Assembly (NCBI GenBank): GCA_049520275.1
Contig: JBEKPY010000032.1
Coordinates: forward strand, 26,277-90,276
DNA length: 64,000 bases
From: Bryobacteraceae bacterium
GTDB lineage: Bacteria > Acidobacteriota > Terriglobia > Bryobacterales > Bryobacteraceae
Reading direction: 5' to 3'
A program made the position numbers and the translations under genes. The first letter of the stretch is position 1, and each line of letters begins with the position of its first letter. The notes below the pieces were generated by a model. The model ran no database searches, had not been told where the DNA came from, and saw nothing but the letters and a program-made list of their open reading frames with translations. This document shows positions 3,370 to 35,636 of the stretch, piece by piece.

Positions 3370-3414
3370 CGTGAGATTAGAGGACCCGCCGGGTGTCCTT
3401 GCATCGTGCAAGCA

Positions 3415-6400: not shown

Positions 6401-7290
6401 TATTCGCTTTTGAGGAAGTGAGCGAGCCGGTTCGCGCGCTCATTCAACTCGGCGTAGGTCAGCCCCGCGCCGTCGTTGACAACCGCGAGCGCGCCGGGCT
6501 GGCTGGCCGCCCGTTGCTCGAACACCTCCGCGATGGAAACCGCGGGCAACACCCGTTGCGTCTCGTGGCGAGCGTACCGCGATCGCTCCGCGTCATCCAT
6601 TAGCGAAACTCCGCTCAACGGACGATCGATGTCTTCATAGCCGGCGAGAACATTTCCGAGGTGGCGTGCGAAATGACTGAGATACTCAGGGGAGAAGGCG
6701 GCGGCGGCCCCGCTCAGATGGATGCGCAAGCCGCGCCCGCGCCTGACTTCAATCGCGAGATCGAAGCGCTCCGGATTCTCCAGGCGGGCGTGCACACCCT
6801 CAAACTGAAGCGACACGTTGGTCGACAAACTGGCTGCGTTTCCCGACTGCTTAGCTGCATCCGCGATGGAAAAATCCCGATAGGTGTAGCTATCCGAGAC
6901 CGTGCGCCGGATGGCGTTCAGATACTCCCGGACGGCGCCATCCGCCGGAACCTCCGCAATCAAAGGCAGGGATCCGCTTTCGCCCGCCATCAAGGGAGAC
7001 TCCACCTGCACCACGGGCGATCCGCTGTAGGCGCTCAAAACGTGAAATATTCCGCCGGCAATGACCACGAACGCACCCAGGTCGTTACCGCCGGAGAGAT
7101 CGTCGATGAGCGCAAGGGCGGACGGAGGCAACTCCACTTCCTGCTCTATTCGCCCGCTCCGTGGAAGCGCGTACGCCCGCTGATGCTGTCGTAGCTGGAA
7201 GCCGCCACGAAGTTTCCGAATCGCGAGCTTCCAGAAGTTCGCGTGTTCGCAATACCCTTCGCTGGTTAGTGTCTGATTCATCGCATTCAT
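3415..7290 (-). CDS. Non-ribosomal peptide synthetase: truncated (C-terminal lobe only) C domain - A - T - E
   Basis: 1291-aa ORF. A motifs LTYAELNERANRLAHFL, YTSGSTGKPKGV, YGPTEATV, GELCIAGVGLARGY, KIRGYRVELGEIE; PCP FFELGGDSILIIQ. Final domain carries HHLAIDGVSWRIL, typical of epimerisation domains. The first ~200 aa resemble only the C-terminal half of a C domain; no HHxxxDG. Confidence 0.85.
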   Translation of the reverse strand: MNAMNQTLTSEGYCEHANFWKLAIRKLRGGFQLRQHQRAYALPRSGRIEQEVELPPSALALIDDLSGGNDLGAFVVIAGGIFHVLSAYSGSPVVQVESPLMAGESGSLPLIAEVPADGAVREYLNAIRRTVSDSYTYRDFSIADAAKQSGNAASLSTNVSLQFEGVHARLENPERFDLAIEVRRGRGLRIHLSGAAAAFSPEYLSHFARHLGNVLAGYEDIDRPLSGVSLMDDAERSRYARHETQRVLPAVSIAEVFEQRAASQPGALAVVNDGAGLTYAELNERANRLAHFLKSEYGLQTGDVVGVVSDASESWITALLAVLKAGCVYLPLDPEYPEERLQFLIDDAGVRVLLIHSEQMSQLSAFYATPMFALDLQLDALETSTDDPSPAAQPHDAAYIIYTSGSTGKPKGVILEHRGFVNMALHHIAAFGIDASDRFSQFYSAGFDSSLFEVLVPLMAGGTVVTIPRAAIKDPAQFSELVQKHGVTTITAPPVYLAALDRGKLHSVKRIVSAGDNAKVDDARDFARNIAYYNSYGPTEATVCVTHHRVDPLASYAARIPIGKAIDNIAIYLLDANLELVPEGCIGEICIAGVGLARGYLNRPDQTETAFVPNPFQDGERLYRTGDLGVWLPDGELELIGRKDTQVKIRGYRVELGEIESVLAQHRRIRDAVVVVHENQPGEKRLAAYVTVDGPVTPADLREYLKNRLPEFMVPPVFVVLDDMPLTANGKIDRKALPAPREAAAAGGGGDAPESEIQERVARIWAEVLGLDRVGIRDNFFELGGDSILIIQAVARANHAGIKLSAQQFFEHQTIAELAAVAVDARAVVAEQGAVTGAVPLAPMQEWFFSQSFAAPHHFNQSVMLEVPPDLAPEAVQFAVEGLLKHHDALRLRFAKIGEKWEQRYDVPGAEIPFTWSNVATDSEVERRAAQIQSGMDLAHGPLIRVHLFRRPGSGPSLLLVAVHHLAIDGVSWRILLEDLYALCRGAELPAKTSSFMEWSSRLHEFSRTDFEGLSYWRHVCAAPVTSIPKDRAGSSDSGTFASAADVQCSLDRSRTHDLLHEAPRAFNTRIDDILLTALLLTFMEWTGSSGLLVDMEGHGREDLFPDLDCSRTAGWFTALYPVLLRGESGASPVQALKAVKEQLRAIPLRGFGYGLARYLRRDAEVLAQPAAEVLFNYLGQTDRVLTAGDAWKPVLGLSSPEVASANRRSHVLEINGIVTAGQLAMTWTFSKNMHDRATIERLAQRYTVILGALVDSCRTADSPAYTPSDFPGARLDQTELDALIAGMGNS

Positions 7291-7296
7291 TTTGAT

Positions 7297-8895
7297 CTAG
7301 TGCGTCCAAATTTCCTTCTGCGCGTACAGGTTCTCGGACACAATTCCGCGGGCCCGACAGTGGGCCACCAGCTTGCGCGACTGGATGTACGATTCGGACT
7401 CTTCATTCAGTTCGTTATCGAGGATGTGCGACAGCCACGGCTCCTGGCCCATCGCGTAGACATACACCTGCTTGAAATGGAAGCGATCCACCAGCGCGGA
7501 CGCCTCGTCGAACGTGGACCCTCGCGAGCGCCGGGACCGGTCCACTTCGCGCGGCAGCGCCTGCGGGAAGAACACGCCGTAGAGCCAGGAAGGCGGCGCA
7601 CCTTCGCATTCCATCCCCAGGAACAGGATTTCGGGCTCACCGGCCTGCCGGAAGACATGCTCGAACAGCCGCGTCTCGGGATTACAGGAATCGGCCACGC
7701 ACAGCACTCTCCGTTCGCCAATGCGGACCAGATAAGCGTTCTTGCTCTGGATCAGAAGATCGTGGTGCTCGCCCAGGAAGGGGATCGCGGTAATGCTGCC
7801 GTTGGGAATGGGAATCTCGGTCATGTCGCGCACTTCCATGACATTCGGAAACCCGGTATTTTGCAGGGCAAGCTGCAATGACGGGTCCTGCAGGAAGCCG
7901 TCGAGATTGCGGCCCACCACCACGGTTTTCACCTTGTGGCGCAATTGCAGCAGCGTCTCCAGCAGGATGTGATCGTGATGGCTGTGCGTGATCAGAACGT
8001 AGTCGATCCGATCCGGCAGGTCGGCGTAGGTATAGCGCGGCAGGTCCGCCGAATAGGTGTAGCTTACGATGGGGTCCACCAGGATCGTGACGTTCTTCGT
8101 CTCGATCAGCAAACACGCATGCCCGAGGTAGCGGATGCGCATCTGGTCTCCGTCGTAAGCCGGGGCCGGCGGCGGGGCGGCCTCCGTGAAAAAGGACTGA
8201 AACCGAAATTCGGCCGCACCCGCGATGTCGAAGCAATCGCGAATCGCTCCGTACGATTGTGCTTCCCGCTTCATGCGAAACAGGCGATCGAGACCCGGAT
8301 TGCGAAACGGCGTCTCCAGGAACACCGTTTGATCGTCCTTGAGGCGGGGCGTGCTCATGATGAACGGGCGCTCCTTGTCGCGAACGATCTCGGAAAGCGC
8401 GATGCTCTGGGCGCTTTCGGCATACATCTCGCTGCGATACAGAAGCGGCTCAAACACGCGCACGGTCGGACTGTGATTCACGTCGTAGCACAGCTCGACA
8501 TAGCCTTTGAGGACATCGGGCATCTCTTTGTAGATGGGGTCCAAAGCCATGCCCTTCGCCTTTTGCACCAGGGCGGAAGAGAATTGCTTCAGAGCGCGGC
8601 CGAACTCCAGAACGCGCTGGCAGCGGCTGGTGGTCTGCTCCAGCAGAGCTTTCACCTCGTCGACCCGCTTGCCCCCAAGGTCGATAAACGGGCCGCCCTT
8701 CATCGCAGGGTTCTTCAGCGCCGCCACGTGCAGTTGAGGCGAGGCCACGTAGGACTTCATGATGGGCAGGTAGCGCTCCAGGAGATTCAGGGCGGCCGAT
8801 GCCGGGGGAATCAGGAGAACCCAGGCGTACCAGTTGTTCCACAACGGCTCCACCTGGATGTTTGGCTTGAGATAGACTTTGCATTCGCCGGTCAT
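7297..8895 (-). CDS. CmlA-like non-heme diiron beta-hydroxylase (N-terminal domain + MBL-fold domain)
   Basis: 532 aa. C-terminal metallo-beta-lactamase fold (LITHSHHDHIL, multiple H/D/E ligand motifs); ~250-aa N-terminal domain. Size and two-domain layout match CmlA-type PCP-substrate beta-hydroxylases. Embedded between NRPS genes and translationally coupled to both. Confidence 0.55.
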   Translation of the reverse strand: MTGECKVYLKPNIQVEPLWNNWYAWVLLIPPASAALNLLERYLPIMKSYVASPQLHVAALKNPAMKGGPFIDLGGKRVDEVKALLEQTTSRCQRVLEFGRALKQFSSALVQKAKGMALDPIYKEMPDVLKGYVELCYDVNHSPTVRVFEPLLYRSEMYAESAQSIALSEIVRDKERPFIMSTPRLKDDQTVFLETPFRNPGLDRLFRMKREAQSYGAIRDCFDIAGAAEFRFQSFFTEAAPPPAPAYDGDQMRIRYLGHACLLIETKNVTILVDPIVSYTYSADLPRYTYADLPDRIDYVLITHSHHDHILLETLLQLRHKVKTVVVGRNLDGFLQDPSLQLALQNTGFPNVMEVRDMTEIPIPNGSITAIPFLGEHHDLLIQSKNAYLVRIGERRVLCVADSCNPETRLFEHVFRQAGEPEILFLGMECEGAPPSWLYGVFFPQALPREVDRSRRSRGSTFDEASALVDRFHFKQVYVYAMGQEPWLSHILDNELNEESESYIQSRKLVAHCRARGIVSENLYAQKEIWTH

Positions 8896-11800
8896 GGGGT
8901 CTTTCCTCTCGACTTTGTGTGAAATGCCAGATCGATTGCCACTTTGACCGTTTGTCGCGGCTGCACCGGATCGAGAGGAATGCTGTGCAGCCGGACGCCG
9001 CCGTCGTTCGCGGCGTAATTCAGAATCGTTTGGAATCCCTCGGCCAGCCGGCGCACGGTGGACTCCTGGAACAGCGAACCGTTGTACACCACATTCATGT
9101 CGATAACTTCGCCGGTGGGCTCGGCCAGAATCCAGAAGTCGGTCATTGCTTCCGCCGCGGTCGCTTCCAGTTCGGGATAGGCCTTCTCGGAAATGCGCAA
9201 GCGCCGGGAGCCGTTCTCGCGGCGAGCCAGACGTTGATTCTGAAGCGTGAATCCAACATCGAAGAGAGGATTCCGTTCGAAACTCCTCTTCACTCCCAGT
9301 TGCTCGACAATTCGATGCAGCGGATAAAGCTGGTTGGCGTGAGCTTCGAGTGTCGTCTCGCGAACTCGATCGAGCAGAATGTCGAACGGGTCGGACCCGG
9401 CAACCGTCGTCCGCAGCGCCACGACGTTCAGATACGGCCCAATCTGATTCTGCAACTCCGTGCGCACCCGTCCCGCTAAAGGCGATCCGACGACGATGTC
9501 GTCACTGCCGGTACTTCGATAGAGGAGCGTTTTGAGGACCGCCAGCATGACCATGAACTGCGACGCGCCATGGCGCCTGCCGATCACATCGACCTGCCGC
9601 GTCTGGTCCGCGCCCAATTGAAAGCGATAGGACTGGCGGCGGTATCCGCGCGCCTCCGAACGCGGTACGTCCGAAGGAAACTCGAGCGGCAGCAATTCCC
9701 CCGCCAGCTTGTGGAGCCAGTAGGTTCGCATGTCCGCTCCCCGCTCTCCGGCAAGAAGTTCGTTCAGCCATGCGGCGTAATCCTTGTAGTGAATTGGCAG
9801 CGGTTCCAGATTCGACGTCCGGCCATCGGCCAGGGCATCGTATGCCTGCTTGAACTCGTCGATCAGGATTTCGATCGATACGCCGTCGGTAACGATGTGG
9901 TGCATGGCGCAGGCGCATAGATGTCTCATCCCGCCCAGGCGGACGAGGGTCACGCGAAGGAGCGGCCCGGTCGCCAGATCCATGGCCGGGGAGGCCTCCC
10001 GTTGCAGGATGCGCACCGCTTCCGCTTCCGGATCGCCCGCGCCGCTCGCATCGAATCGGGCGGCGGCGAACCGGGATTCATCCGGGGCGAGCACCTTTTG
10101 TCTGGGACGATGCTCCAGCGCGGGAAAAACCGTTCGCAGAATCTCGTGCCGCCGGATGAGCGTCCGAAATGCTTCGTCGAAGAGCTCCTCGTCCAGATTC
10201 CCTTCGATGAGAAAGCACCCGGGGAGCATTGCGCCCTGTGCCTGGCCAGTCTGTTCCTGCACCCACAAGCGCATCTGGAACGGCGCCAGCTCATAGGTAT
10301 CCTGCCGCGCCGTGGGAAGGATCGGCTCGTAGCGGGCGCCCCCGCGGCGCGCGATTTCCCGCGCCAGACCCGCGATGGTCGGGTGAGAGAATATGCCGCG
10401 GATCTCCAGATCGCTGGTCATCTCTTCGTGAATCCGCGCCGCTACGCGAGTGGCGGATAGCGAATTGCCGCCGATCTCAAAGAAGTTGTCGAAGACTCCG
10501 ATTCTGGACTTGCCGATGGCTTCCCGCCAGATGACCGCCAGTTTTTCTTCCATGGCATCGCGAGGCGCCGCGTAAAGGGTGCGAACACCCGGATCGGGCA
10601 GCCTGGCGCGATCCACTTTTCCATTCGGAAGCAGAGGGAATTCCTTCAGGACCACAAACCGCGCCGGCGTCATGTACTGCGGCAGCCGGTCCTGCAAATG
10701 CCGGCCGAGGGGCGCCAGGACTTCTTCCTCCGAATGGTCCGACGCGACATAAGCGATCAACAGGGCGGATTCGCCTTCCTCGCGCAGCACGACAATGGCG
10801 TCGCGCACAAACGGATGCAGGGTCAGTGCGGCTTCAATCTCTCCCAGTTCAATACGGAACCCTCGCAACTTGATCTGCGTGTCGGCGCGGCCAAGGAACT
10901 CGATATTGCCGTCTTCGCGAAAGCGGGCGAGGTCGCCGGTCCTGTACAGCCGTTCGCCTTCCTGATAGGGATCTGCGATAAAGCGCTCGCGGGTCAACTC
11001 GGGGCGATTCAGATACTCGCGCGCCAGGCCGGAACCGCCGATATACAGCTCGCCGGCGATGCCCGGAGGAACCGGTTGCAGGTGACGGTCCAGGATGCGG
11101 GCTTTCTTGTTGAGCAAGGGCCGGCCGATCGAGGGCGCCAATTCGTCATCCCGCTCCACGATCGCGCCCGTCGAATAGACGGTGTCCTCGGTCGGCCCGT
11201 AGATATTGAGCACCTGGCGGACCGCCGTCTGCCGGTAGATTCGCTGCACGATGCTGCGAAGCAGGCGTTCGCCGGCGAGCTGGAAAGTGTTGACCGACTC
11301 GGGCAAAGGTCCGGACCTCAGTAGTTCCGGCACAACCGACGGCACCGTACTGACCAGCGTTACTTCGTTGGCCGAGGGCAGTCGTGGCAGATCGAGCGCG
11401 TTCTCCGCAATGACCACCGTACCCCCGCATGCAAGGGGGACGAAGATTTCGAAGACGGATACGTCGAAGCAGACGGAAGTGGAGAACAGCACGCCTCGAA
11501 GCTGCTCGGGCGCATAGAACGAGCAGGCCCAATCCACCAGTCCGCTGAGGCCCGCCTGAGTGATGGCGACACCCTTCGGTTTCCCGGTGGAGCCGGAAGT
11601 GTAGATGACGTACGCCAGATCCTGCGGCTGCACTGTGGCTGGGGACGCCTCCGCCGGCGGGTGCTCGCCATCGACAAACACAAGCCGGGCTGCGTGCTTC
11701 GAAAGCACAAGGGCGCAGGCCCGATCCGTGAGCAGGACATCGATGCCCGCGTCGTCGAGCATCGACTCCAGCCTGGCTTTGGGGTACTCGGGATCGAGCG

Positions 11801-14800
11801 GAACATAAGCGCCACCCGCCTTCCACACCGCCAGCAATCCCGCGATCAGGTCTGCTGTCCGGCCGGCACAAATCCCCACCCTTGTCTCCCGCCGGACTCC
11901 GAGCTTTGCCAACTCGCCCGCGATGCGCATGGCTCGGTCATTGAGCTGGCCGTACGAAACCCTGCGTTCGCGATCGACGACCGCCGTGCGCTGAGGATCG
12001 CGCGCCACCTGTTCCTCGAACAGCGACAGGGCGGAAGCGGCCGACGCTGGAAGAACCGGGCCGTTCCACATTGCGGCAAGCGCCGTCATTGCCGGCTCGG
12101 ATAGCAGCGGCATGCGGGAGATGGCGGCGTCCGGATCGGCAACGGCGGCGCGAAGAAGCGTCTCGTAGATCTCAAGAAATCGCCGGACCGTCTTCGGTTC
12201 CAGGACATCGCTGCTGTAATCGCAATCGATGTGAAGTTCCGAACCCGCATCGGTGACGTTGACGCTCAGATCGAAGGCGACAAATCGAACCTCGGGCTCG
12301 GCCGGTTGCAGGGTCAGTCCTGGAATCTCCGGAAACCGGGAGACCGGCTCCAGGTTAAAGACGACGGAAATCAACGGCGACGCGCCAGCTCCCCGGCGCG
12401 GTCCCAGCTCGCGCAACAACTCCGCGAAGGGATAATCCTGATGTTCCATTCCATCGAGCAAGGTCTGCCGGCTCTGCAGCAGGAACTGACGGAACGAAGC
12501 GTCCGCATCGAAGCGGCTGCGCACCGGCAACAGGTGCGTGCAGTAGCCCGCGACACTCTGGCCCTCACGGGAGAATCTGCCAGTCACCGGAAGACCTACG
12601 ATGAGGTCGTCCTGTCCAGTAATCCGGTGCAGAAGGACGTTGAACACCGCGGTCAGCGTCGCGTATAACGTGCAGCCATGGGAGCGCGCGAGCAGGCGAA
12701 GCCCATCCGCGAGGGCGGAGTCGATACGCTGGGTGAGACGTCCGCCCCGGTACGTGTTGAGCGCGGGTCGCGCGCGATCTAATGGAAGCTGCACGGACGG
12801 ACTATCGGGCCCGGTCTGTGCCAACCAGTAATCGCGATGCGCCTGCATTTCGCGCGATTCCATCCGGTTCGCGGCCGCCGCAAGGTACTCGCGGAACTGC
12901 GTCGGCCTGGCAGGAACGTTCCTGCCCGAATAGAAGTCCGCAATCTCGCCCACTAACAGCGCCATGGAAGCGCCATCGGAAATGATGTGGTGCGCAGTGA
13001 GACTGAGGATGTGCCGGCTATTCTCACGCTGGACCAGATTCGCACGGAACAACGGACCTTCCAGCAGGTTCATCGCTTCCCCGGAATCGGGCTTGTCCTC
13101 GAGCGCAACCTTGAATTTCGACGCCGGCCAGACGATTTGTTCCCGATCTGACGCGATGGTGGTGCGCAGGGCCTCGTGCCGTTCGATGACCCGTTGAATC
13201 GCCTGCCGGAGACGATCGCGATCCAGTTCACCCACCAGCTCGACGCTCGTGTTCACGTGATACGCCAGGTTCCCGCCGCGTTCGATCTGGCTCAGCAGCC
13301 AGAGTTGACGCTGCGCCTCGCTCAAGGGGACGCGAACCGCCGCATCCACCCTGGCATCCGGAAGCCATCCGCCGCAGCGCAGCTCGGCGATGGTTTCGTC
13401 GATGGCGGCCGCGAACCTCCGGAGATCCTCCTCAGTGTGCGCGGTCGACAGGAAGCACGTGCGCCACTCCCAGATGTAGATTCCCTTCTCCAGAAGGTGA
13501 TAGAAGAACAAGTCCAGATTCGAAGAAAACTCGAACCGGAACATCGACCCGAAGTGCGCGACCCGGATCGGCACATTGCCCTCCTCGAAGGACCCGTTCA
13601 ATTGCTCCGCGAACTCAGCCGTCCGTTTGTTCAGGCGATCCTGTGTGGCGCCCTTGTCATCCAGCAGGTAGCGCAAAACGGCCCGCGCGGCCGCCATCGA
13701 AAGAGGATGCTGGCAGAATGTACCGCCGAATGCGGTGCGCTCCGCGGCGGGGAACGATCCGTCGCCGTACTGCCACATTCCGCCGTCGATGCCATCCATG
13801 AACCGTGCCTTGCCGGCCACGACGCCTATGGGCAGTCCGCCGCCGGCGACTTTGCCGTACGTGGCAAGGTCCGCTTCAATGCCGAACCAACCCTGCGCCC
13901 CCTTCGGATGAACGCGGAGGCCGGTGATCATTTCGTCGAAGATCAGGGCCGCGCCACACTCGGTGGTGATCCTGCGGAGTTCCCGCAGGAAGTCTCCAGG
14001 CTGCAGGGAGGGGTTCCGCGATTGCACGGGCTCCACCATGACGGCCGCCAACTCGCCGCCGAGCGCACGGACCTCTTCGAGCGCCTCCTCGGCGCCGTAT
14101 TCCAGCACGGCGATGTCCTCGACGGCGCCGGCAGGCACTCCCGGCGCAACCGCGACCGTTTCCGTCTTCCCGCCCTGAACGCGCGCTGCCGCCAGCGTTC
14201 CGTCGGAATGGCCGTGATAGGAATGCGTAAAGATGACGATCTTCGTGCGGCCCGTGGCCGCGCGTGCAAGCCGCATCGCGGCCATCACCGCCTCAGTTCC
14301 GCTGTTGGAGAACGCAACGCGCTGGTGTCCCGTCAACCGGGTGAAGAGGGTGGCCACTTCGCCAACCAGATCCGAACGCGCTCCGAGCTCCACGCCACGA
14401 CGGAACTCCTCTTCAATGGCTCGGTTAATAAACTCCGGCTGGTGGCCGAACAAGTGGACGCCAAAGCCCATCGTGAAGTCGACGTAATCGTTCCCGTCAA
14501 CGTCCCACAGCTTCGATCCCTGCGCGCGTACACCCACGATGGGATAGAGCATTTCCTTCGTGGAGAATCGAAAACCCACCGTTGCGCGGCTGTCCGCCAG
14601 CACCCCACGCGACTCCTGGACCATTTCCCTGGATCGCCGGGTGCGTCCGTTGTAGCGGGCCACCAGGTCCTCCAGATGCTCCCGCTGTGTCCGGCTGAGT
14701 CCCTGCGTTGCAGGCGAAACGGGCGCCCCCCAAGGCAGCAGAGGCGCGGCACGCTCCGGTGCAACAGGCGCGGCGGAAGGGGAAGGCCTGTGAGGTTCCA

Positions 14801-17800
14801 GCGCCGGAACATTGTGTGGCGGAACTTTCATCTGCCGCAGCATCTCCATCTGCTGGGCGATGATCTGTTGCACCATCCTGTTCTGCTCCGCGATTACCCG
14901 TTCGATCACCGTCGGCGCGTCCGCCGACGACGGTTCGGAAATGGGCGGCGGCGCCGTGGCGGGAAGAACCCGATCGATATGATCGGCCAGGGCTTTCAGT
15001 GTGGACAGATCCTCGAAGAAGTTGCGGATGGCGAGTTTCACGCCATACTCGCGTTCGATGGACTGCAGGACGTCCATCAGCACGAGTGAGTCTGCGCCCA
15101 TTTCAAGGAATGGTGTTGTCTCGCCGACGTCCGCGGCATCGGCGTGAAGGAACGTCGCGACGACGGCTTTCAGCCGGAGAAGAATGCTCTCACGGCGCGG
15201 CCCGACGATCGCATCTTCGTGTTTGGCTGGAGCCTGCACGGTCCTCGGCGATTCCTTGAACCAGATCCGAACGCGGTGGAATGGACGATGTGGCAACGGC
15301 GGCCGGCGGCCTGGCTGGCCAGCAAGAGCTGGCTGCGGCGCTTCCTCGAGCAGCACATGCGCGTTGGTCCCGCTCGCTCCGAACGCACTGACACCCGCGA
15401 TGCGCTTTCGCTCGCCGCGCTTCCAGGGAGTCTGTTCGCGACAGATTTCCAGCGGCAGCTCACTCCAGGAGATCAGGGGGTTGGGATTGCGCACGTGCAG
15501 ACTCGCAGGCAGTTGCTCATGCTGGAGCGCCAGCAGAACCTTGATCACCCCCGCAACGCCCGCGGCCGATTCGGCATGGCCAATGTTCGACTTCACCGAG
15601 CCGATCCGTAGCTTCCCGGGCCGCTCCCCGCCGTCACCGAACACCGCCGCGAGAGCGCGTACCTCGATGGGGTCTCCGAGTTGCGTGCCGCTCCCATGAG
15701 CCTCGACATAGTCCACCTGGGAGGGCGCGACGACGTCTGCCAGGGCCTTCCGGAGCACCGCTTCCTGTGCCCGCCCGTTCGGAACAGTGAAGCCGCTGGA
15801 GGCGCCGTCATGGTTGACGGCCGAGCCACGAATCAGGGCGAGGATGGAATCGCCATCCGCGAGCGCTCTGGATTCCGTCTTCAGGACCACAACTCCGCAG
15901 CCCTCGCTCCGCACGAATCCATTGGCCGATTCATCGAAGCTCCGGCAACGCCCATCGGGAGAGAGCGCGTGGGTCCGGCAGACCGCCACGGTTGTTTCGG
16001 GCGCAAGGATCAGGTTCACGCCGCCGGCAAGCGCCATGCCGCATTCGCCGTTACGCAGGGCCTGGCATGCCTGGTGAATCGCGACCAGCGACGACGAGCA
16101 GGCGGTATCCAGAGCCATCGCCGGGCCGGTGAGCCCCAGAGTGTAGGATACGCGCCCGGCAGCGGTGTTCAGAGGATTGCCGGTGAAGAAGTAGCTGTCG
16201 ACGCCGTTGTTCCCGCCATTCTGCATCAGCAGATGCGCGTAGTCGTGGGTGGTGATGCCCACGAAGACTCCGGTCTGGCTGCCTTTCAGGTCCGCCGCCG
16301 GAATTCCGGCGTTCTCCAGCGCTTCCCAACTCACTTCGAGCAGCAGGCGATGTTGCGGGTCCATGCTCTCCGCTTCGCGTGGTGAAATGCGGAAAAAAGC
16401 CGGATCGAACAGGTCGACGTCGCGCAGGAAGCCGCCATGACGCGTATACATCTTGCCTGGGTCGTCCGGATTGGAACTATAGTGCTGGTCCAGACTCCAG
16501 CGCTCGCGCGGGACCTCCGAGATCGCGTCGATGCCGTCTCGCAGGACGCGCCAGTAGCTCTCACCGTCAATCGCGTCGCCGGGAAATCGGCACCCGAAGC
16601 CGACGATGGCGATGGCTTCGCTCTTTTCCGCCGGCGCCACGGGCGCTTCCACTGGCGCGTCGCCCAGAAGGTAATCCGCAACCGCCTCGATGGTTGGATT
16701 GTCGAATATCAAAGTGGCGGGGAGCGCGCGGCCCGCACAGGCTTCCAGGCGCGTGCGAAATTCGAGCGCGAGCAGGGAATCCATGCCCATGTCGAAGAAG
16801 CCCCGGTCCCGCTCCGGAAGCGTGTCTCGTAACTGCAGGACCTCCGCCGTCTCGCGCTGAAGGAAGCGAATCAGTTCGTCGCGCGACCGGGGCAGCGACG
16901 GGGTTCCCGCGGCATGGGCCGCTTTCCCCTGGTCCATTCGAGCCAGCAGGAGCCGATGTCCGCGGGCTTCATAGGAGCCTCGGAACAAAGGCCAGTTGAC
17001 ATCCGCCACGATTGTCTGAGTCTCCCCGCTGCCGAGAAGCTTTCCCAGGGCCGCGAGGGCCTTGTCGGTGGCGAGCGGATTGACGCCGGCACGCCGCAGC
17101 AGCGCGTCCGATTCCGCGGTATTCATGCCTCCTTCGGCCCAAGGACCCCAGTTGATCGTCAATGCCGGCAAGCCACGTGCGCGTCGATGATGTGCCAGAG
17201 CGTCGAGGTACCGGTTTGCCGCGGCGTAATGAGCCTGGCCGCGAGAGCCCCATACCGATGCGATCGAGGAGAAACAGACGAAGAAGTCCAGCTCCAGGCC
17301 TCGCGTCAGCTCGTGCAGTACCTGGGCGCCTTGCACCTTGGGCCGCAACACCGCGTCCCATTCGCCCGGGCCGATTTCGTCGAATGCCCGATACCCCGCA
17401 ACGCCGGCGGCATGAATGACGCCACGCAGGGCCGGCCCGCAGGAGGCGAGCAGGATATCCATCTGCTCCCGCTCGGCCACGTCGGCGCGCTCGCAACGCA
17501 CCGCGATTCCCCGCGCTTCGAGGGCAGCAATAGCGGCGCGCGCCTGGTCGGTCCGCGGCCCTGCTCTTCCCACCAGAATCAGTTGCCGCGCTCCCCGATC
17601 GGCGAGCCAGCACGCGACTCGCAACCCCAGGGCTCCGAAGCCACCCGTGACCAGGTAAGCGTGGCCGGGCGCGATCTTCAGTTCAGCGGCGCTTCTCGGC
17701 TCCGCTTTCGCCAGTCTGGGAACCAGGCGTTTGCCGCCTCGGAAGGCAACCAGGTCCTCAGGACCGCCGGAGGCGATCTCATGGATCAGACTTTCGACCT

Positions 17801-19697
17801 CACCGGGAGCCGAAGCCGCATCCAGATCGATCGCCGCGCCCGCGAGTTCGGGATGCTCCAGAAACAACACCTTCGCCAATCCCGTCAGGGGCGCCTGTGC
17901 GACACCATCCAGTTCGGGCGCGCCGGCGGCTTCCGTCGCGCCGCGGGTGATCAGCCAGATCCTCGATGGTTTTTCTGTTCGTCGCGCTGCCGCTTGCGCC
18001 ATGTCCAGCAACAGATGTGCGCACCCGGGATCGTCCAGCCCTTTCATGAAGACGATCCGGTCGAAAGATCCCGCATGGAGCGACTCGACGTCCTCCCCCA
18101 GAACGCAGCGGATTGCTCGCGCCTCCGCAAGCTTCGCCAGATTCTCCGCCAGGTCCCCGCGATCGCGAACGATGAGCCACGATTCTTCCCCGGCCGCAAT
18201 GGAGGGCGCTGGCGGCGCCTGCTCCCAATCGACCCGATAGAACCAGTCCGGCGCCGATGCCTTCGCATTGCGCTTGCCGGCCAGTGGATAGTGCTGCCGC
18301 TGGAAGGACAGCCCTGGATTCTCTTTCGCAGGCGCCGCTTCGTTGGTTTCGGGCGGCTCCTCGACGATCGCGTGAGCGTTGGTGCCGCTGAACCCGAAAG
18401 CGCTCAGTCCGGCGATGCGCCGGACGCCCCCCCGTTTCCATTCCACCGGCGCAGCGGCCACGCGAACGCGGATCTCATTCCAGGAAATGTGCGGATTGGG
18501 CTCGCGAAAATGCAGGCTCGCGGGAATACGGCCATTCTGAAACGCCAGCAGAATCTTGATCAGCCCGGCGATGCCGGATGCCGGTTCGAGGTGCCCGATG
18601 TTCGTTTTCACCGAACCGGTCCACAGGGCGGCTTCGCTATCGCGACCCTGGCCGTAAGCGCTCGCCATGGCTTCGATCTCGATCGGGTCTCCCAGGGATG
18701 TGCCGGTACCATGCGCCTCCACGTATCCGACCTGGCGCGGCTCCAGCCCCGCATCCGCCAGGGCGCGTTGAATGACCGAGCGCTGCGCCGCCACGCTGGG
18801 AACGGTCAGCCCGCCGCTCGGTCCGCTGTGGCCAACGGCGGTGCCGCGAACGATTCCGAGAATATTGTCCCGGTTGCGAACCGCATCCGCCAGGCGCTTC
18901 AATACCACCACGCCACAACCCTCGCCACGGCTGTACCCGTCGGCCGACGCATCGAAGGATTTCGACAGTCCATCCGCGGACAACATGTGCGCCCGTGAAA
19001 ACGTGGCCATGACGGCGGCAGACAACATCAGATGAACGCCACCCACGAGCGCGACTTCGCTCTCACCGGACCGAAGACTCTGGCACGCGAGATGGAGGCA
19101 CACCAGCGACGAGGAACACGCCGTGTCGACGGCCATGCACGGACCGGTCAGTCCCAATAGATAGGACAACCGTCCTGCCGCGGCATTGAGGGCGCTGCCC
19201 GTGCCGGCGTAGGCCCCGGCTTGCTCGAGCTCCGCACCCAGCAACACGGCATGATCGAAACAAGTGATTCCGAGAAAGGTGCCGACCGGGCGTTCGTAAA
19301 GGCTGCCGGGCGCAAGCTTCGCGTTTTCGAGCGCCTGCCAGGCCACTTCCAGCAGTATCCGTTGCTGCGGGTCCATGCTGGCGGCTTCCCGAGGCGAGAT
19401 TCCGAAAAACGGAGCATCAAAATCCTCGATGCCTTCAATAAAACCACCCCTCCGGACCGGCATCGAAGTGGCATCCCAACGCTCGGCCGGAACATCCCGG
19501 ATCGCACAGATACCCTTGTCCAGAAGCTGCCAGAAGGACTCGGGACTATTGCACCCTCCCGGAAACCGGCAGCTCATTCCAATGATGGCGATCGGCCCGT
19601 TTCTCGAGGCACGCAGCGCCTCGATTTCCGCGCGCCTCTGCCGCAGCTCTTCGAGAGCCGTCTTCAGCGTTGCGGCGTGATTTGGATTGGAACTCAT
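8892..19697 (-). CDS. Hybrid PKS/NRPS megasynthase: KS-KR-ACP-KS-ACP-aminotransferase(AMT)-C-A-T-C
   Basis: Track ORF 8892..20183; the first 162 codons look like junk, and the likely start is the ATG at 19697 (MSSNPNHAATLKTALEELRQRRAEIEALRAS docking helix). Two KS domains with Cys/His/His intact (TACSSSL, VEAHGTGT / VEAHGSGT, NIGH), no AT. KR (Rossmann VTGGFGALG... YAAAN). Two ACPs (GMDSLLALEF, GADSLVLMDV). Class-III PLP aminotransferase / GSA-aminomutase-like domain (FSNSGTEAVMAAMRLARA, YGKVAGGGLPIGVVAG). Then C (HHIISDGAS), A (YTSGSTGKPKGV), PCP (FFEIGGNSL), C (HHIVTDGVS). Confidence 0.9.
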   Translation of the reverse strand: MSSNPNHAATLKTALEELRQRRAEIEALRASRNGPIAIIGMSCRFPGGCNSPESFWQLLDKGICAIRDVPAERWDATSMPVRRGGFIEGIEDFDAPFFGISPREAASMDPQQRILLEVAWQALENAKLAPGSLYERPVGTFLGITCFDHAVLLGAELEQAGAYAGTGSALNAAAGRLSYLLGLTGPCMAVDTACSSSLVCLHLACQSLRSGESEVALVGGVHLMLSAAVMATFSRAHMLSADGLSKSFDASADGYSRGEGCGVVVLKRLADAVRNRDNILGIVRGTAVGHSGPSGGLTVPSVAAQRSVIQRALADAGLEPRQVGYVEAHGTGTSLGDPIEIEAMASAYGQGRDSEAALWTGSVKTNIGHLEPASGIAGLIKILLAFQNGRIPASLHFREPNPHISWNEIRVRVAAAPVEWKRGGVRRIAGLSAFGFSGTNAHAIVEEPPETNEAAPAKENPGLSFQRQHYPLAGKRNAKASAPDWFYRVDWEQAPPAPSIAAGEESWLIVRDRGDLAENLAKLAEARAIRCVLGEDVESLHAGSFDRIVFMKGLDDPGCAHLLLDMAQAAARRTEKPSRIWLITRGATEAAGAPELDGVAQAPLTGLAKVLFLEHPELAGAAIDLDAASAPGEVESLIHEIASGGPEDLVAFRGGKRLVPRLAKAEPRSAAELKIAPGHAYLVTGGFGALGLRVACWLADRGARQLILVGRAGPRTDQARAAIAALEARGIAVRCERADVAEREQMDILLASCGPALRGVIHAAGVAGYRAFDEIGPGEWDAVLRPKVQGAQVLHELTRGLELDFFVCFSSIASVWGSRGQAHYAAANRYLDALAHHRRARGLPALTINWGPWAEGGMNTAESDALLRRAGVNPLATDKALAALGKLLGSGETQTIVADVNWPLFRGSYEARGHRLLLARMDQGKAAHAAGTPSLPRSRDELIRFLQRETAEVLQLRDTLPERDRGFFDMGMDSLLALEFRTRLEACAGRALPATLIFDNPTIEAVADYLLGDAPVEAPVAPAEKSEAIAIVGFGCRFPGDAIDGESYWRVLRDGIDAISEVPRERWSLDQHYSSNPDDPGKMYTRHGGFLRDVDLFDPAFFRISPREAESMDPQHRLLLEVSWEALENAGIPAADLKGSQTGVFVGITTHDYAHLLMQNGGNNGVDSYFFTGNPLNTAAGRVSYTLGLTGPAMALDTACSSSLVAIHQACQALRNGECGMALAGGVNLILAPETTVAVCRTHALSPDGRCRSFDESANGFVRSEGCGVVVLKTESRALADGDSILALIRGSAVNHDGASSGFTVPNGRAQEAVLRKALADVVAPSQVDYVEAHGSGTQLGDPIEVRALAAVFGDGGERPGKLRIGSVKSNIGHAESAAGVAGVIKVLLALQHEQLPASLHVRNPNPLISWSELPLEICREQTPWKRGERKRIAGVSAFGASGTNAHVLLEEAPQPALAGQPGRRPPLPHRPFHRVRIWFKESPRTVQAPAKHEDAIVGPRRESILLRLKAVVATFLHADAADVGETTPFLEMGADSLVLMDVLQSIEREYGVKLAIRNFFEDLSTLKALADHIDRVLPATAPPPISEPSSADAPTVIERVIAEQNRMVQQIIAQQMEMLRQMKVPPHNVPALEPHRPSPSAAPVAPERAAPLLPWGAPVSPATQGLSRTQREHLEDLVARYNGRTRRSREMVQESRGVLADSRATVGFRFSTKEMLYPIVGVRAQGSKLWDVDGNDYVDFTMGFGVHLFGHQPEFINRAIEEEFRRGVELGARSDLVGEVATLFTRLTGHQRVAFSNSGTEAVMAAMRLARAATGRTKIVIFTHSYHGHSDGTLAAARVQGGKTETVAVAPGVPAGAVEDIAVLEYGAEEALEEVRALGGELAAVMVEPVQSRNPSLQPGDFLRELRRITTECGAALIFDEMITGLRVHPKGAQGWFGIEADLATYGKVAGGGLPIGVVAGKARFMDGIDGGMWQYGDGSFPAAERTAFGGTFCQHPLSMAAARAVLRYLLDDKGATQDRLNKRTAEFAEQLNGSFEEGNVPIRVAHFGSMFRFEFSSNLDLFFYHLLEKGIYIWEWRTCFLSTAHTEEDLRRFAAAIDETIAELRCGGWLPDARVDAAVRVPLSEAQRQLWLLSQIERGGNLAYHVNTSVELVGELDRDRLRQAIQRVIERHEALRTTIASDREQIVWPASKFKVALEDKPDSGEAMNLLEGPLFRANLVQRENSRHILSLTAHHIISDGASMALLVGEIADFYSGRNVPARPTQFREYLAAAANRMESREMQAHRDYWLAQTGPDSPSVQLPLDRARPALNTYRGGRLTQRIDSALADGLRLLARSHGCTLYATLTAVFNVLLHRITGQDDLIVGLPVTGRFSREGQSVAGYCTHLLPVRSRFDADASFRQFLLQSRQTLLDGMEHQDYPFAELLRELGPRRGAGASPLISVVFNLEPVSRFPEIPGLTLQPAEPEVRFVAFDLSVNVTDAGSELHIDCDYSSDVLEPKTVRRFLEIYETLLRAAVADPDAAISRMPLLSEPAMTALAAMWNGPVLPASAASALSLFEEQVARDPQRTAVVDRERRVSYGQLNDRAMRIAGELAKLGVRRETRVGICAGRTADLIAGLLAVWKAGGAYVPLDPEYPKARLESMLDDAGIDVLLTDRACALVLSKHAARLVFVDGEHPPAEASPATVQPQDLAYVIYTSGSTGKPKGVAITQAGLSGLVDWACSFYAPEQLRGVLFSTSVCFDVSVFEIFVPLACGGTVVIAENALDLPRLPSANEVTLVSTVPSVVPELLRSGPLPESVNTFQLAGERLLRSIVQRIYRQTAVRQVLNIYGPTEDTVYSTGAIVERDDELAPSIGRPLLNKKARILDRHLQPVPPGIAGELYIGGSGLAREYLNRPELTRERFIADPYQEGERLYRTGDLARFREDGNIEFLGRADTQIKLRGFRIELGEIEAALTLHPFVRDAIVVLREEGESALLIAYVASDHSEEEVLAPLGRHLQDRLPQYMTPARFVVLKEFPLLPNGKVDRARLPDPGVRTLYAAPRDAMEEKLAVIWREAIGKSRIGVFDNFFEIGGNSLSATRVAARIHEEMTSDLEIRGIFSHPTIAGLAREIARRGGARYEPILPTARQDTYELAPFQMRLWVQEQTGQAQGAMLPGCFLIEGNLDEELFDEAFRTLIRRHEILRTVFPALEHRPRQKVLAPDESRFAAARFDASGAGDPEAEAVRILQREASPAMDLATGPLLRVTLVRLGGMRHLCACAMHHIVTDGVSIEILIDEFKQAYDALADGRTSNLEPLPIHYKDYAAWLNELLAGERGADMRTYWLHKLAGELLPLEFPSDVPRSEARGYRRQSYRFQLGADQTRQVDVIGRRHGASQFMVMLAVLKTLLYRSTGSDDIVVGSPLAGRVRTELQNQIGPYLNVVALRTTVAGSDPFDILLDRVRETTLEAHANQLYPLHRIVEQLGVKRSFERNPLFDVGFTLQNQRLARRENGSRRLRISEKAYPELEATAAEAMTDFWILAEPTGEVIDMNVVYNGSLFQESTVRRLAEGFQTILNYAANDGGVRLHSIPLDPVQPRQTVKVAIDLAFHTKSRGKTP

Positions 19698-30111: not shown

Positions 30112-30716
30112 TCTCAGTTCTCCTCACCGCCCATGGAGATGTTCCGGCTGGAGACGGTAACCCCTGGCATTCCAAGGACGGCAGTACGCAGCGGTTCCAA
30201 AGGGGTCGGCAATCTCCACGCAGGACGAGTAGGCTCCCATTCCCAGCCATAGTGATACGGCCTGGGACAAAGCTGCTGAGATGCCTGGCGCCAAAGAACC
30301 GGGCTGTTCTCGCAGACAGAAACGGGACAGTGACGTCGATATACAATTCCTCCAACGGTCTCGATCAGCCACGAAATCCTCATAGCGCCGCTCTAAGACG
30401 ACCGCAGAATCGTCGCGCGGCGCAGGAATTATTGTCATCATCGCGAAGTCCCCGGCGCGAGTCAAGGAAAATCTTTTTTGTTTTTCAAAGTCGCCGCTCA
30501 CCGCCACCGTGCGTTCTCGCCAAGAGTAACCCTGTCGGCCGACGCCGGACATTCGGCATCGGCAAGGGCGAACAACGGACGAAATTAGCGGTGTTTCCCG
30601 ACCGAGTCGTGTACCGGGGGAAACACTGGTTGTGAGATCGCGAGGTCTGTGGTACCCATAGTAGATCTTGGGGATTTCGACCTGGGTTTGAAATCCTGTT
30701 CGCCAGAGGACGCCAC

Positions 30717-33284: not shown

Positions 33285-33288
33285 AGGG

Positions 33289-34470: not shown

Positions 34471-34483
34471 CAATGGACAGAAT

Positions 34484-34666
34484 ATGACCCAATATCTTGT
34501 TATTGCGTGGATCCTCGGCAGTTTAATTATTGCCCTGTGCGGCTCCAGGTTTCGGTTCGGATTCTGGGGGTACTTCTTTGGGTCGTTGCTGTTGACGCCC
34601 ATCATCGGCCTGCTTCTATTACTGGCGGCCGTTCCACCCCGTCCCCGGAAATCCGAACGTGTGTAA
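34484..34666 (+). CDS. Small two-TM membrane protein (60 aa)
   Basis: MTQYLVIAWILGSLIIALCGSRFRFGFWGYFFGSLLLTPIIGLLLLLAAV; ATG at 34484 14 nt after the SBP stop. Confidence 0.4.
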   Translation: MTQYLVIAWILGSLIIALCGSRFRFGFWGYFFGSLLLTPIIGLLLLLAAVPPRPRKSERV

Positions 34667-34874
34667 ACGCGGGTCGGCTGATCGTGAACTCGGCGTACCA
34701 GGGATTCCCTTGGGCGTGAATCGTAGAGTACTAAAGTTTTCACCTTACCCGACCGATCACAGAGTTGTTGATCAAATGCATGAGGCAGCCAACAGGAGGT
34801 CCGCGCTGGCTGAGTTCGATCCAGATCGCAAACGGAAGTCCTTCCACCACTAAGCCCGGACAGAACGAGAGAGT

Positions 34875-35621: not shown

Positions 35622-35636
35622 GAAACAGGTGAACCA

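What the first reader, a model, noticed from the sequence alone, without database searches (positions are those of the whole stretch)
8892..19697. AT-less KS-KR-ACP and KS-ACP-AMT modules downstream of a cis-AT module
The FAAL subunit carries a canonical cis-AT (GHSIGE). Both KS domains of the megasynthase have intact Cys-His-His triads (so are probably elongating) but no AT follows either. No discrete trans-AT gene is present in the window. Either the single cis-AT acts in trans or iteratively, or a trans-AT is encoded elsewhere. Mixed cis/trans-AT logic in front of an AMT is unusual.
Basis: seen in the sequence. Interest (0 to 1): 0.55.

Follow-up and report, generated by a model that had tools for sequence, protein, structure and literature searches.

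The report
Polyketide modules that lost their acyltransferases
In an occidiofungin-like antifungal lipopeptide gene cluster from an acidobacterium, two of three polyketide modules have had their malonyl-loading (AT) domain cleanly cut out. No separate AT gene lies nearby, so the one remaining built-in AT, or the cell's fatty-acid AT, must load all three modules.

Summary
The 3601-aa megasynthase (8892-19697, minus strand) is KS-KR-ACP-KS-ACP-AMT-C-A-T-C. Both KSs have intact Cys-His-His triads, and no AT is detectable even as a remnant.

- **Origin of the modules.** These are not trans-AT-type modules. Both KSs are cis-AT-type and orthologous to AT-containing modules in related clusters. Alignment shows single in-frame excisions of 429 and 424 aa (KS-AT linker core plus AT) that keep the post-AT linker motif.
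- **Selection.** The architecture recurs in three lineages and is under purifying selection (dN/dS 0.10-0.13).
- **Cluster identity.** The cluster is syntenic with the occidiofungin (ocf) cluster of Burkholderia. There the pattern is reciprocal: AT1 and AT2 are dead stubs and only AT3 is intact. Here only AT1 survives. Other Acidobacteriota keep all three.
- **No discrete AT.** None lies 34 kb upstream in the window, or 10 kb past the terminal thioesterase in close relatives.

Best reading (about 0.5): the single malonyl-specific AT on the FAAL subunit serves all three ACPs. Main rival (about 0.35): a housekeeping FabD or distal AT, as for FK228. I rate it a new variant of a known kind, of moderate interest.

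The parts
22908..27992 (-). Subunit P3 (OcfJ-like): FAAL-ACP-KS-linker-AT-DH(N-terminal half). This is module 1 up to the first hotdog of the DH.
   Evidence: Pfam; domain HMMs; orthologue gene calls.
23466..24422 (-). The only AT domain of the assembly line. It is intact and malonyl-type (GQGSQ, GHSIGE, HAFH).
   Evidence: Its nearest relatives are module-1 ATs of other lineages. dN/dS is 0.18-0.19.
19706..22942 (-). Subunit P2 (OcfI-like): luciferase-like monooxygenase, DH (C-terminal half), KR, ACP. This is the rest of module 1. Its ACP sits on a different polypeptide from the AT.
   Evidence: Pfam. Alignment A1 shows 85% identity to orthologues and 52% to the Burkholderia OcfI orthologue. 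The same 35-nt overlap with P3 is seen in L003 and L004.
8892..19697 (-). Subunit P1 (OcfH-like megasynthase, 3601 aa): KS-KR-ACP-KS-ACP-AMT-C-A-T-C, with no AT.
18495..19607 (-). KS of module 2, with an intact Cys-His-His triad.
   Evidence: It is cis-AT-like. Its nearest non-self relatives are module-2 KSs that carry a full AT. dN/dS is 0.11-0.13.
18282..18353 (-). Excision scar of module 2. The KS end (...AIVEEPP) is joined, via a short spacer, to the retained post-AT linker motif LSFQRQHYPL. A 429-aa gap separates it from AT-containing orthologues.
   Evidence: MAFFT alignments.
17091..18194 (-). KR of module 2, including its structural subdomain. The GGFGALG and YAAAN motifs are present.
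16653..16883 (-). ACP of module 2 (GMDSL).
15480..16625 (-). KS of module 3, with an intact Cys-His-His triad.
   Evidence: dN/dS is 0.10-0.13.
15258..15341 (-). Excision scar of module 3. The KS end (...LLEEAPQPALAGQPGRRP) is joined directly to the retained post-AT linker motif PLPHRPFHRVRIWF. A 424-aa gap separates it from AT-containing orthologues.
   Evidence: MAFFT alignment; motif coordinates.
14958..15197 (-). ACP of module 3 (GADSL), which precedes the aminotransferase.
13428..14597 (-). Class-III PLP aminotransferase (AMT) domain. It would convert the beta-keto group to a beta-amino group.
   Evidence: Pfam. dN/dS is 0.08-0.09. The function is inferred from the MycA/OcfH analogy.
8973..13334 (-). 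NRPS part of P1: C-A-T-C.
7297..8895 (-). CmlA-like diiron beta-hydroxylase (OcfG-like).
   Evidence: Pfam; synteny with the ocf gene table.
3415..7290 (-). NRPS subunit (OcfF-like), 1291 aa: truncated C, then A-T-C.
   Evidence: Pfam.
1..3414 (-). Start of the next NRPS subunit (OcfE-like). It runs off the left end of the window, so the cluster is truncated here.
   Evidence: The full gene is 3006 aa in L001.
28011..30111 (-). SbnB-like (ornithine cyclodeaminase family) and SbnA-like (PLP, cysteine-synthase family) gene pair at the head of the cluster. It probably supplies 2,3-diaminopropionate.
   Evidence: Pfam; the same pair is in L003 and L060. The Dap assignment is inferred from the staphyloferrin SbnA/SbnB precedent, from my own knowledge.

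Best explanation
The region is the PKS core of an occidiofungin-type lipopeptide synthetase from a Bryobacterales-like acidobacterium.

**Proposed pathway**
- A fatty acid is activated by the FAAL.
- It is extended three times with malonate by three colinear modules:
  - Module 1 is KS-AT-DH/LLM-KR-ACP, split over P3 and P2.
  - Module 2 is KS-KR-ACP.
  - Module 3 is KS-ACP-AMT.
- The product is a 3-amino-5,6,7-trihydroxy-type fatty acyl thioester, which the NRPS modules then elongate.

**Origin of the AT-less modules**
Modules 2 and 3 descend from ordinary cis-AT modules. The KS-AT linker core and the AT were excised in frame. The KS, the first ~55 linker residues and the post-AT linker were kept.

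**Proposed loading**
Their ACPs are malonylated by the single remaining malonyl-specific AT of module 1 on P3. That AT already has to load an ACP on another polypeptide (P2). So one embedded AT is shared by the whole three-module line.

**Shown versus inferred**
- Shown: the architecture, the intact active sites, the excision boundaries, orthology to AT-containing modules, purifying selection, the absence of any AT gene in and around the cluster, and reciprocal AT retention in Burkholderia.
- Inferred: that the P3 AT, rather than an unlinked enzyme, does the loading; and the product structure.
For: 1. Both KSs, both ACPs, the KR and the AMT have intact catalytic motifs.
2. dN/dS against two other lineages is 0.10-0.13 for the AT-less KSs. 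That is as low as the AMT and lower than the NRPS domains. The modules are therefore in use.
3. The nearest non-self KS relatives are module-2 and module-3 KSs that carry full ATs (L008, L009, L045; 64-71% identity). Alignment shows single gaps of 429 and 424 aa with the YPFxRxRxW-type post-AT linker kept.
4. Family survey of 67 loci:
   - Pyrinomonadaceae, Blastocatellia and a proteobacterial MAG keep three intact malonyl ATs.
   - L021 has a dead AT2 (GQGVG).
   - 14 Burkholderia loci (13 in the survey plus L005, which duplicates one species), and Granulicella, have a stub or no AT1, a stub AT2 (in Burkholderia GHGVG, with no GQGSQ or HAFH) and an intact AT3.
   - The window lineage has an intact AT1 and no AT2 or AT3.
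   - Opitutaceae have KS-AT... followed by an AT-less KS module.
   - Every assembly line seen complete keeps at least one intact AT, but not the same one.
5. The ocf cluster makes occidiofungin. Its fatty amino acid has C3-N, C5-OH, C6-OH and C7-O, which requires three malonate extensions. Its published gene list has no AT gene.
6. No AT is found in window 30-64 kb, nor in the 5-10 kb after the terminal TE in L077 and L076, which are about 91% nt identical to the window.
7. All ATs in the family are HAFH (malonyl) type, so sharing is chemically consistent.
8. Module 1 is itself split, so its AT already works on an ACP it is not fused to.
Against: - No direct evidence shows that the P3 AT reaches ACP2 or ACP3. 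From general knowledge of DEBS-type systems, embedded cis-ATs transacylate non-cognate ACPs poorly in vitro.
- ACP2 and ACP3 show no sequence convergence toward ACP1 compared with full-AT lineages.
- The genome outside about 100 kb could not be searched, so an unlinked AT or FabD is not excluded.
- One related locus (L060) shows two PKS modules with no AT anywhere in 23 kb. This hints that an external AT can suffice, or that the locus is defunct or incomplete.
- 'At least one AT retained' could also reflect unfinished decay.
Confidence: 0.5

Rival explanations
1. An unlinked acyltransferase loads ACP2 and ACP3. It could be the fatty-acid synthase FabD or a discrete AT encoded elsewhere in the genome. 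The P3 AT would serve only module 1.
For: - Precedent: the FK228 (dep) cluster has AT-less modules and no functional AT gene, and is served by the FAS component FabD1 (PMC12994790).
- L060 has two AT-less modules and no AT within 23 kb.
- No ACP convergence toward ACP1 was seen.
- The rest of the genome could not be searched.
Against: - If an external AT could serve these ACPs, no embedded AT would need to be kept. Yet every lineage seen complete retains exactly or at least one intact AT, and the retained one is under purifying selection.
- Which AT is kept differs between lineages (AT3 in Burkholderia, AT1 here). That is what AT sharing predicts.
Confidence: 0.35
2. A dedicated trans-AT gene belongs to the cluster but lies just outside the window. 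This would be the classic trans-AT or iturin/FenF arrangement.
For: - The window truncates the cluster at its left end.
- Iturin-type KS-ACP-AMT modules do have an adjacent malonyl-CoA transacylase gene.
Against: - Orthologous contigs cover the missing part. After the three NRPS genes and the TE come an A-T didomain and an FAD halogenase. Unrelated divergent genes follow: TPR, epimerase, DUF697 and ABC.
- There is no PF00698 in the gene tables, and only noise from an AT profile at E<=10.
- Upstream, window 30-64 kb has none either.
- The Burkholderia ocf gene list has none.
Confidence: 0.03
3. Modules 2 and 3 are relics, are skipped or are non-elongating. Alternatively, module 1 iterates, so no extra AT is needed.
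For: AT loss is often a step in pathway decay. L060 looks like a degraded cluster: PKS genes without NRPS genes.
Against: - Cys-His-His triads, ACP serines, the KR and the AMT are intact.
- dN/dS is 0.10-0.13 across three lineages.
- The excisions are clean and in frame, with the structural linker retained.
- The equivalent AT-deficient modules in Burkholderia demonstrably deliver a product needing three distinct extension and tailoring steps.
Confidence: 0.05

Closest known systems
Occidiofungin/burkholdine (ocf/bks) hybrid PKS-NRPS cluster of the Burkholderia cepacia complex (OcfJ-I-H-G-F-E-D)
   Same: - The gene order and sizes match one for one: FAAL-ACP-KS... (OcfJ), LLM-DH-KR-ACP (OcfI), the KS-KR-ACP-KS-ACP-AMT-C-A-T-C core (OcfH), a CmlA-like hydroxylase (OcfG) and three NRPS subunits ending in a TE.
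- Identity is 50-53% for P2 and P1, and 63-70% for the KS domains.
- Both work with a single intact, malonyl-type AT for three modules, and with no discrete AT gene.
   Different: - Burkholderia keeps AT3 and retains dead stubs of AT1 and AT2 plus full KS-AT linkers. Here AT1 is kept and AT2 and AT3 are excised without trace.
- Here SbnA/SbnB-like genes (Dap) replace the DABA transaminase.
- The last NRPS is longer, at three modules.
- There is an extra A-T didomain and an FAD halogenase, in place of the TauD-type OcfK.
- No glycosyltransferase is seen.
- The host is an acidobacterium (Bryobacterales-like), not Burkholderia.
Iturin family synthetases (MycA/ItuA/BmyA with FenF/ItuD/BmyD)
   Same: - A fatty acid is activated by an acyl ligase.
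- An AT-less KS-ACP-AMT-C-A-T unit makes a beta-amino fatty acid that starts a lipopeptide.
- The ACP before the AMT is malonylated in trans (PMC3039948).
   Different: - Iturins have a single PKS extension and a dedicated discrete malonyl-CoA transacylase gene at the head of the operon.
- Here there are three extensions, an embedded AT in the first module and no discrete AT gene.
Canonical trans-AT PKSs (e.g. bacillaene, disorazole)
   Same: Several AT-less modules must share one AT (PMC11907408).
   Different: - The KSs here score with cis-AT KSs: CurL 535/549 bits and DEBS about 440-458 bits, against about 300-405 bits for single trans-AT KSs. They are also orthologous to AT-containing modules.
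- The KS-flanking (AT-docking) subdomain is truncated to about 55 of 135 positions.
- There is no free-standing AT, AT-ER or AH gene.
FK228 (romidepsin) dep cluster
   Same: It has AT-less type I PKS modules inside a hybrid NRPS-PKS, with no AT gene in the cluster.
   Different: There the AT function comes from the primary-metabolism FabD1 (PMC12994790), and no embedded AT exists at all. Here one embedded AT is conserved.

Membership tests
trans-AT PKS | Elongating modules lack an integrated AT. | tested here: met
   Modules 2 and 3 of P1 give no AT signal with Pfam or with my own AT profile. The KS triads are intact.
trans-AT PKS | A free-standing AT (or AT-ER/AH) gene is encoded with the cluster. 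| tested here: not met
   None in the 64-kb window. None in 5-10 kb beyond the terminal TE in close relatives L076 and L077.
trans-AT PKS | KS domains belong to trans-AT KS lineages. | tested here: not met
   The best solved relatives are cis-AT KSs (CurL, DEBS). The nearest homologues are AT-containing orthologous modules. No formal phylogeny with curated trans-AT clades was run.
trans-AT PKS | The KS is followed by a complete flanking (AT-docking) subdomain. | tested here: not met
   Only positions 2-55/58 of the 135-position KS-AT linker profile remain. There is no PF22336 or PF22621 hit in P1, whereas P3 has both.
cis-AT modular PKS | Each elongating module carries its own AT between the KS and the processing domains or ACP. 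| tested here: not met
   This holds for module 1 only. It fails for modules 2 and 3.
cis-AT modular PKS | KS sequence type, and a post-AT linker (YPFxRxRYW-like) packing back on the KS. | tested here: met
   The motifs LSFQRQHYPL and PFHRVRIWF are retained.
Occidiofungin-type (ocf) BGC | Syntenic core: FAAL-ACP-KS / LLM-DH-KR-ACP / KS-KR-ACP-KS-ACP-AMT-C-A-T-C / CmlA-like hydroxylase / NRPS subunits ending in a TE. | tested here: met
   Window genes plus L001, L074 and L077 for the missing end, compared with the ocf table and Burkholderia loci.
Occidiofungin-type (ocf) BGC | The product is a cyclic glycolipopeptide with a 3-amino-5,6,7-oxygenated C18 fatty acid, beta-hydroxytyrosine and DABA. 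| not testable with these tools
   Only the PKS logic can be mapped onto the NAA2 structure. The amino-acid complement probably differs: Dap genes, a longer NRPS and no glycosyltransferase seen.
Iturin-type lipopeptide synthetase | Acyl ligase-ACP-KS-ACP-AMT-C-A-T on one protein, plus an adjacent malonyl-CoA transacylase gene. | tested here: not met
   The KS-ACP-AMT-C-A-T unit is present, but it is preceded by two further PKS modules on other subunits, and there is no transacylase gene.

The most novel reading that the evidence does not exclude
This BGC family may be a natural series caught between cis-AT and trans-AT logic. One embedded malonyl-AT, still part of a module, would service three ACPs spread over up to three polypeptides. 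Different lineages have kept a different AT: AT1 in Bryobacterales, AT3 in Burkholderia and Granulicella, and all three in Pyrinomonadaceae and Blastocatellia. The superfluous ATs would have been removed either by slow decay into stubs or by precise excision at a recurring boundary. That boundary runs from about residue 55 of the KS-AT linker to the post-AT linker.
Probability: 0.45. Interest if true: 0.7.

Novelty: new variant of a known kind. Interest (0 to 1): 0.55.

Why it matters
**An untested mechanism.** If one embedded AT really feeds three modules, this family is a ready-made natural experiment. It could show how trans-AT-style sharing arises from cis-AT assembly lines, and which linker boundaries tolerate AT removal. 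That is directly useful for PKS engineering (AT deletion or complementation designs).

**It can be tested now.** Occidiofungin producers are genetically tractable. An AT3 point mutant in OcfH would settle whether the embedded AT or FabD feeds the AT-deficient modules.

**A new source of related compounds.** It also flags an uncultured acidobacterial relative of a clinically pursued antifungal, with a probably different peptide (Dap, halogenase, extra module).

**A caution for genome mining.** Tools that label AT-less modules as 'trans-AT' would misclassify this line.

Tried and rejected
- **Weak second AT in the window.** A phmmer hit at 48594-49538 (E 0.008) turned out to be a GHMP kinase.
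- **First downstream walk failed.** A homologue search with the N-terminal 311 aa of the last NRPS returned nothing, although the protein exists. I have no explanation, and one search was wasted.
- **Second attempt.** A second search with its C-terminal 1200 aa returned only proteins of about 2100 aa or shorter, and one fragment, P0121.
- **The route that worked.** The walk succeeded only via the listing of cluster members, which gave P0241 and P0245.
- **ACP convergence test.** I asked whether ACP2 and ACP3 had become more ACP1-like in the AT-less lineage. The result was inconclusive: identities of 24-45% fall within the range of full-AT lineages.
- **Sequencing or assembly artefact.** Rejected. 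The same architecture, and the same 35-nt P3/P2 overlap, occur in independent assemblies.
- **KS0 or non-elongating KS.** Rejected on motifs.
- **Degenerate AT hidden in the linkers.** Rejected.
- **Literature.** Gu et al. 2011 (PMC3165383) is not held. In the held papers I found no statement about the AT complement of the ocf synthase.
- **Precedents for an embedded cis-AT serving neighbouring modules.** Searches found nothing specific.
- **Not attempted.** Structure prediction and fold search would not discriminate between the hypotheses.
Full report
**What is in the window**

Positions 1-30111 on the minus strand hold one co-directional biosynthetic cluster. In transcription order it contains:
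- SbnA-like and SbnB-like genes (30111-28011).
- P3 (27992-22908): FAAL-ACP-KS-AT-DH N-terminal half.
- P2 (22942-19706): luciferase-like monooxygenase, DH C-terminal half, KR, ACP.
- P1 (19697-8892, 3601 aa): KS-KR-ACP-KS-ACP-AMT-C-A-T-C.
- A CmlA-like diiron hydroxylase (8895-7297).
- A 1291-aa NRPS (7290-3415).
- A further NRPS that runs off the left end of the window.

**Checking the observation**

- Pfam finds two KS, one KR, three carrier domains, one class-III aminotransferase, two C and one A domain in P1. It finds no Acyl_transf_1 at E<=0.01.
- Family-specific profiles built with jackhmmer give the same order.
- An AT profile run without filters on the two KS-downstream linkers scores below zero.
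- Both KSs have DTACSSS, EAHG(T/S)GT and K(T/S)NIGH. Both ACPs have the DSL serine. The KR and AMT motifs are present.
- P3 carries a complete AT (23466-24422) with GQGSQ, GHSIGE and the malonyl-type HAFH motif.
- A six-frame search of the whole window finds no second AT. The single weak hit is a GHMP kinase.

**The architecture is real and maintained**

Only two close orthologues of P1 exist in the protein collection (89% identity), and both lack AT. Their contigs show the same gene order and the same 35-nt overlap between P3 and P2. A genome scan adds a Bryobacterales MAG (bog_375, L007) with the same layout, which places the window in Acidobacteriota. L004, L007 and L074 come from one population.

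Nei-Gojobori dN/dS between the window and the other lineages:

| Domain | dN/dS |
|---|---|
| The two AT-less KSs | 0.10-0.13 |
| AMT | 0.08-0.09 |
| C and A domains | 0.14-0.21 |
| Retained AT | 0.18-0.19 |

These modules are under purifying selection.

**What kind of AT-less module this is**

Against solved structures, both KSs score best with cis-AT KSs: CurL at 535 and 549 bits, DEBS at about 440-458 bits. Single trans-AT KS domains score about 300-405 bits.

Within the related loci, the nearest non-self relatives of KS-module 2 are module-2 KSs followed by a full AT (L045 66%, L008 65%). Those of KS-module 3 are module-3 KSs followed by a full AT (L008, L045 and Burkholderia, about 70%).

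MAFFT alignment with those orthologues shows one clean gap per module. It is 429 aa after P1 residue ~452 and 424 aa after residue ~1466. Each gap removes the core of the KS-AT linker and the AT. Each resumes at the post-AT linker motif: LSFQRQHYPL, and PLPHRPFHRVRIWF. Only positions 2-55/58 of the 135-position linker profile remain.

These are therefore cis-AT modules with the AT excised. They are not members of the trans-AT lineage.

**Closest known system**

The next-best homologue of P1 is a Burkholderia ubonensis protein with the same domain order plus ATs. The window's gene order and gene sizes match the published occidiofungin cluster ocfJ-I-H-G-F-E-D one for one. That cluster lists no AT gene (PMC9494966).

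In Burkholderia, by Pfam and motif inspection:
- OcfJ is FAAL-ACP-KS-linker-DH(N), with only a 13-24% AT stub.
- OcfH has a module-2 AT stub with GHGVG (Ser to Gly), and without GQGSQ or HAFH.
- OcfH has one intact AT, in module 3.
- The AT-deficient Burkholderia KSs have intact triads.

The occidiofungin fatty amino acid is C18, with C3-N, C5-OH, C6-OH and C7-O (PMC10897925). This maps colinearly onto three malonate extensions:
- The module-1 KR gives the C7 oxygen.
- The LLM gives the C6 hydroxyl.
- The module-2 KR gives the C5 hydroxyl.
- The module-3 AMT gives the C3 amine.

That mapping is my inference. A characterised pathway therefore already runs three modules on one intact AT.

**Family survey**

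Sixty-seven genomic loci encoding the LLM-DH-KR-ACP subunit were domain-mapped.

| Lineage | AT1 | AT2 | AT3 |
|---|---|---|---|
| Pyrinomonadaceae (L008, L009), Blastocatellia (L045), a proteobacterial MAG (L042) | intact | intact | intact |
| Acanthopleuribacteraceae (L021) | intact | dead (GQGVG, internal deletion) | intact |
| 14 Burkholderia loci (13 in this survey, plus L005) | stub | stub | intact |
| Granulicella (L006) | none | stub | intact |
| Window, L003, L004/L007 | intact | absent | absent |

All intact ATs are of the GHSxG/HAFH type. Two further cases:
- Opitutaceae clusters have KS-AT-LLM-KR-ACP followed by an AT-less KS-linker-LLM-KR-ACP.
- One Solibacteraceae locus (L060) has two AT-less modules, a CmlA-like gene and SbnA/B, but no AT and no NRPS in 23 kb.

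The window's AT is most similar to module-1 ATs elsewhere, so it was retained in place rather than moved.

**Is there a discrete AT just outside the window?**

Upstream, window 30-64 kb has none. Downstream, I reconstructed the end of the cluster from orthologous contigs:
- L001, the same sequence as the window, adds NRPSs of 3006 aa and 3637 aa.
- L074 shows that the last NRPS ends in T-TE.
- L077 is about 91% nt identical to the window. After the TE gene it shows a 766-aa A-T didomain, an FAD-dependent halogenase and then a divergent gene.
- L076 continues 10 kb past the TE: A-T, halogenase, then minus-strand TPR, epimerase, DUF697 and ABC genes.

No gene table entry is PF00698. An unfiltered AT profile gives only noise. 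A cluster-encoded trans-AT is therefore essentially excluded.

**Mechanism**

The most economical reading is that the single malonyl-AT on P3 malonylates ACP1 (on P2), ACP2 and ACP3 (on P1). Four points support it:
- The retention pattern is reciprocal: a different AT is kept in different lineages.
- At least one AT is kept in every line seen complete.
- All ATs have uniform malonyl specificity.
- Module 1 is already split between polypeptides.

The main rival is servicing by FabD or an unlinked AT. FK228 is the precedent (PMC12994790). I cannot exclude it because the rest of the genome is not available, and L060 and the negative ACP-convergence test lean that way.

My probabilities are about 0.5 for AT sharing, 0.35 for an unlinked AT, 0.03 for a cluster-encoded trans-AT, and 0.05 for relic or iterative readings.

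**Novelty and score**

The cluster is a new, acidobacterial member of the occidiofungin-type family. Its PKS is a new variant: two complete AT excisions, with retention of the first rather than the last AT.

AT-less KS-ACP-AMT units are known from iturins (PMC3039948). AT loss from cis-type lines has been proposed in algae (PMC4661987). The phenomenon is therefore not categorically new.

In the held literature I found no mention that the ocf-type synthases run on a single AT. The reciprocal pattern makes AT sharing directly testable. Interest: 0.55.

Noticed in passing
window 22908-23339 (end of P3) and 21380-22942 (start of P2); also L003, L004, L005, L007 and most of L008-L054: The module-1 DH double hotdog is split. 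The N-terminal half (with the HxxxGxxxxP motif) ends P3. A luciferase-like monooxygenase then opens P2, followed by the C-terminal DH half. The two genes overlap by 35 nt. The split is conserved from Burkholderia to cyanobacteria. In L032, L034, L037 and L038 the same order is fused in one ORF. In Opitutaceae the DH halves are gone (KS-AT-LLM-KR-ACP). The LLM probably makes the C6 hydroxyl of the occidiofungin fatty acid; that is my inference.
   Followed up: partly
L005:1101-5525 (B. ubonensis OcfJ orthologue, 1474 aa): Papers on occidiofungin describe OcfJ as the NRPS that incorporates Asn1/BHN1. Pfam shows FAAL(DIP2-like)-ACP-KS-linker-DH(N), with no C domain and no amino-acid-type A domain. 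A 2025 review does list a FAAL for occidiofungins (PMC11837247). If OcfJ is the lipid starter, the ocf line has one A domain fewer than its eight residues would suggest.
   Followed up: partly
L076:9193-11647 versus window 30715-35635: In L076 the region about 8-10 kb downstream of the cluster's TE is 87-90% identical to the region immediately upstream of the cluster in the window. That region is the ABC gene next to the SbnA-like gene, and the orientation is consistent. This could mean tandem cluster copies, a circular element, a rearrangement or a chimeric metagenome contig.
   Followed up: no
L060:6364-20567 (Solibacteraceae MAG): A related locus has FAAL-ACP-KS-DH(N) | LLM-DH(C)-KR-ACP | KS-linker-KR-ACP | CmlA-like | SbnB/SbnA-like. 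It has no AT, no AMT module and no NRPS gene within 23 kb. The module-1 AT excision uses the same linker breakpoint (about position 54) as the two excisions in the window.
   Followed up: partly
L055-L058, L061, L062, L067, L071 (Opitutaceae): A sister family has FAAL-ACP-KS-AT-LLM-KR-ACP followed by an AT-less KS-(full linker)-LLM-KR-ACP and then NRPS modules. This is another, apparently independent, case of an AT-less module directly after a cis-AT module. No discrete AT lies within +/-10 kb.
   Followed up: no
L077:20917-24964, L076:1644-5700, L075:4155-5255: After the terminal TE, the cluster continues with a free-standing A-T didomain and a tryptophan-halogenase-like FAD enzyme. Together with the CmlA-like hydroxylase (window 7297-8895), this suggests a carrier-bound beta-hydroxylated and halogenated amino acid. 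That would parallel the chlorinated beta-hydroxytyrosine of occidiofungins, but with a different halogenase type from OcfK. In L076 the A-T gene appears frameshifted into two ORFs.
   Followed up: no
L005:5539-6591: In B. ubonensis (assembly GCA_001528265.1) an IS605-family OrfB/TnpB gene sits between the ocfJ and ocfI orthologues, on the opposite strand.
   Followed up: no
window 30717-33284 (+): The gene divergent from the cluster encodes an 855-aa protein that combines an ABC-transporter ATPase domain with a C-terminal SPFH/Band 7 domain. This is an uncommon fusion. The L076 and L007 sequences that match part of it by blastn suggest it is conserved next to the cluster.
   Followed up: no
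window 3415-7290, L001:14451-, L077:20917-23217: Several NRPS subunits of the cluster (the 1291-aa, 3637-aa and 766-aa proteins) begin with a truncated C-like region, about half a condensation domain or less, before their A domain. These may be docking or pseudo-C domains.
   Followed up: no
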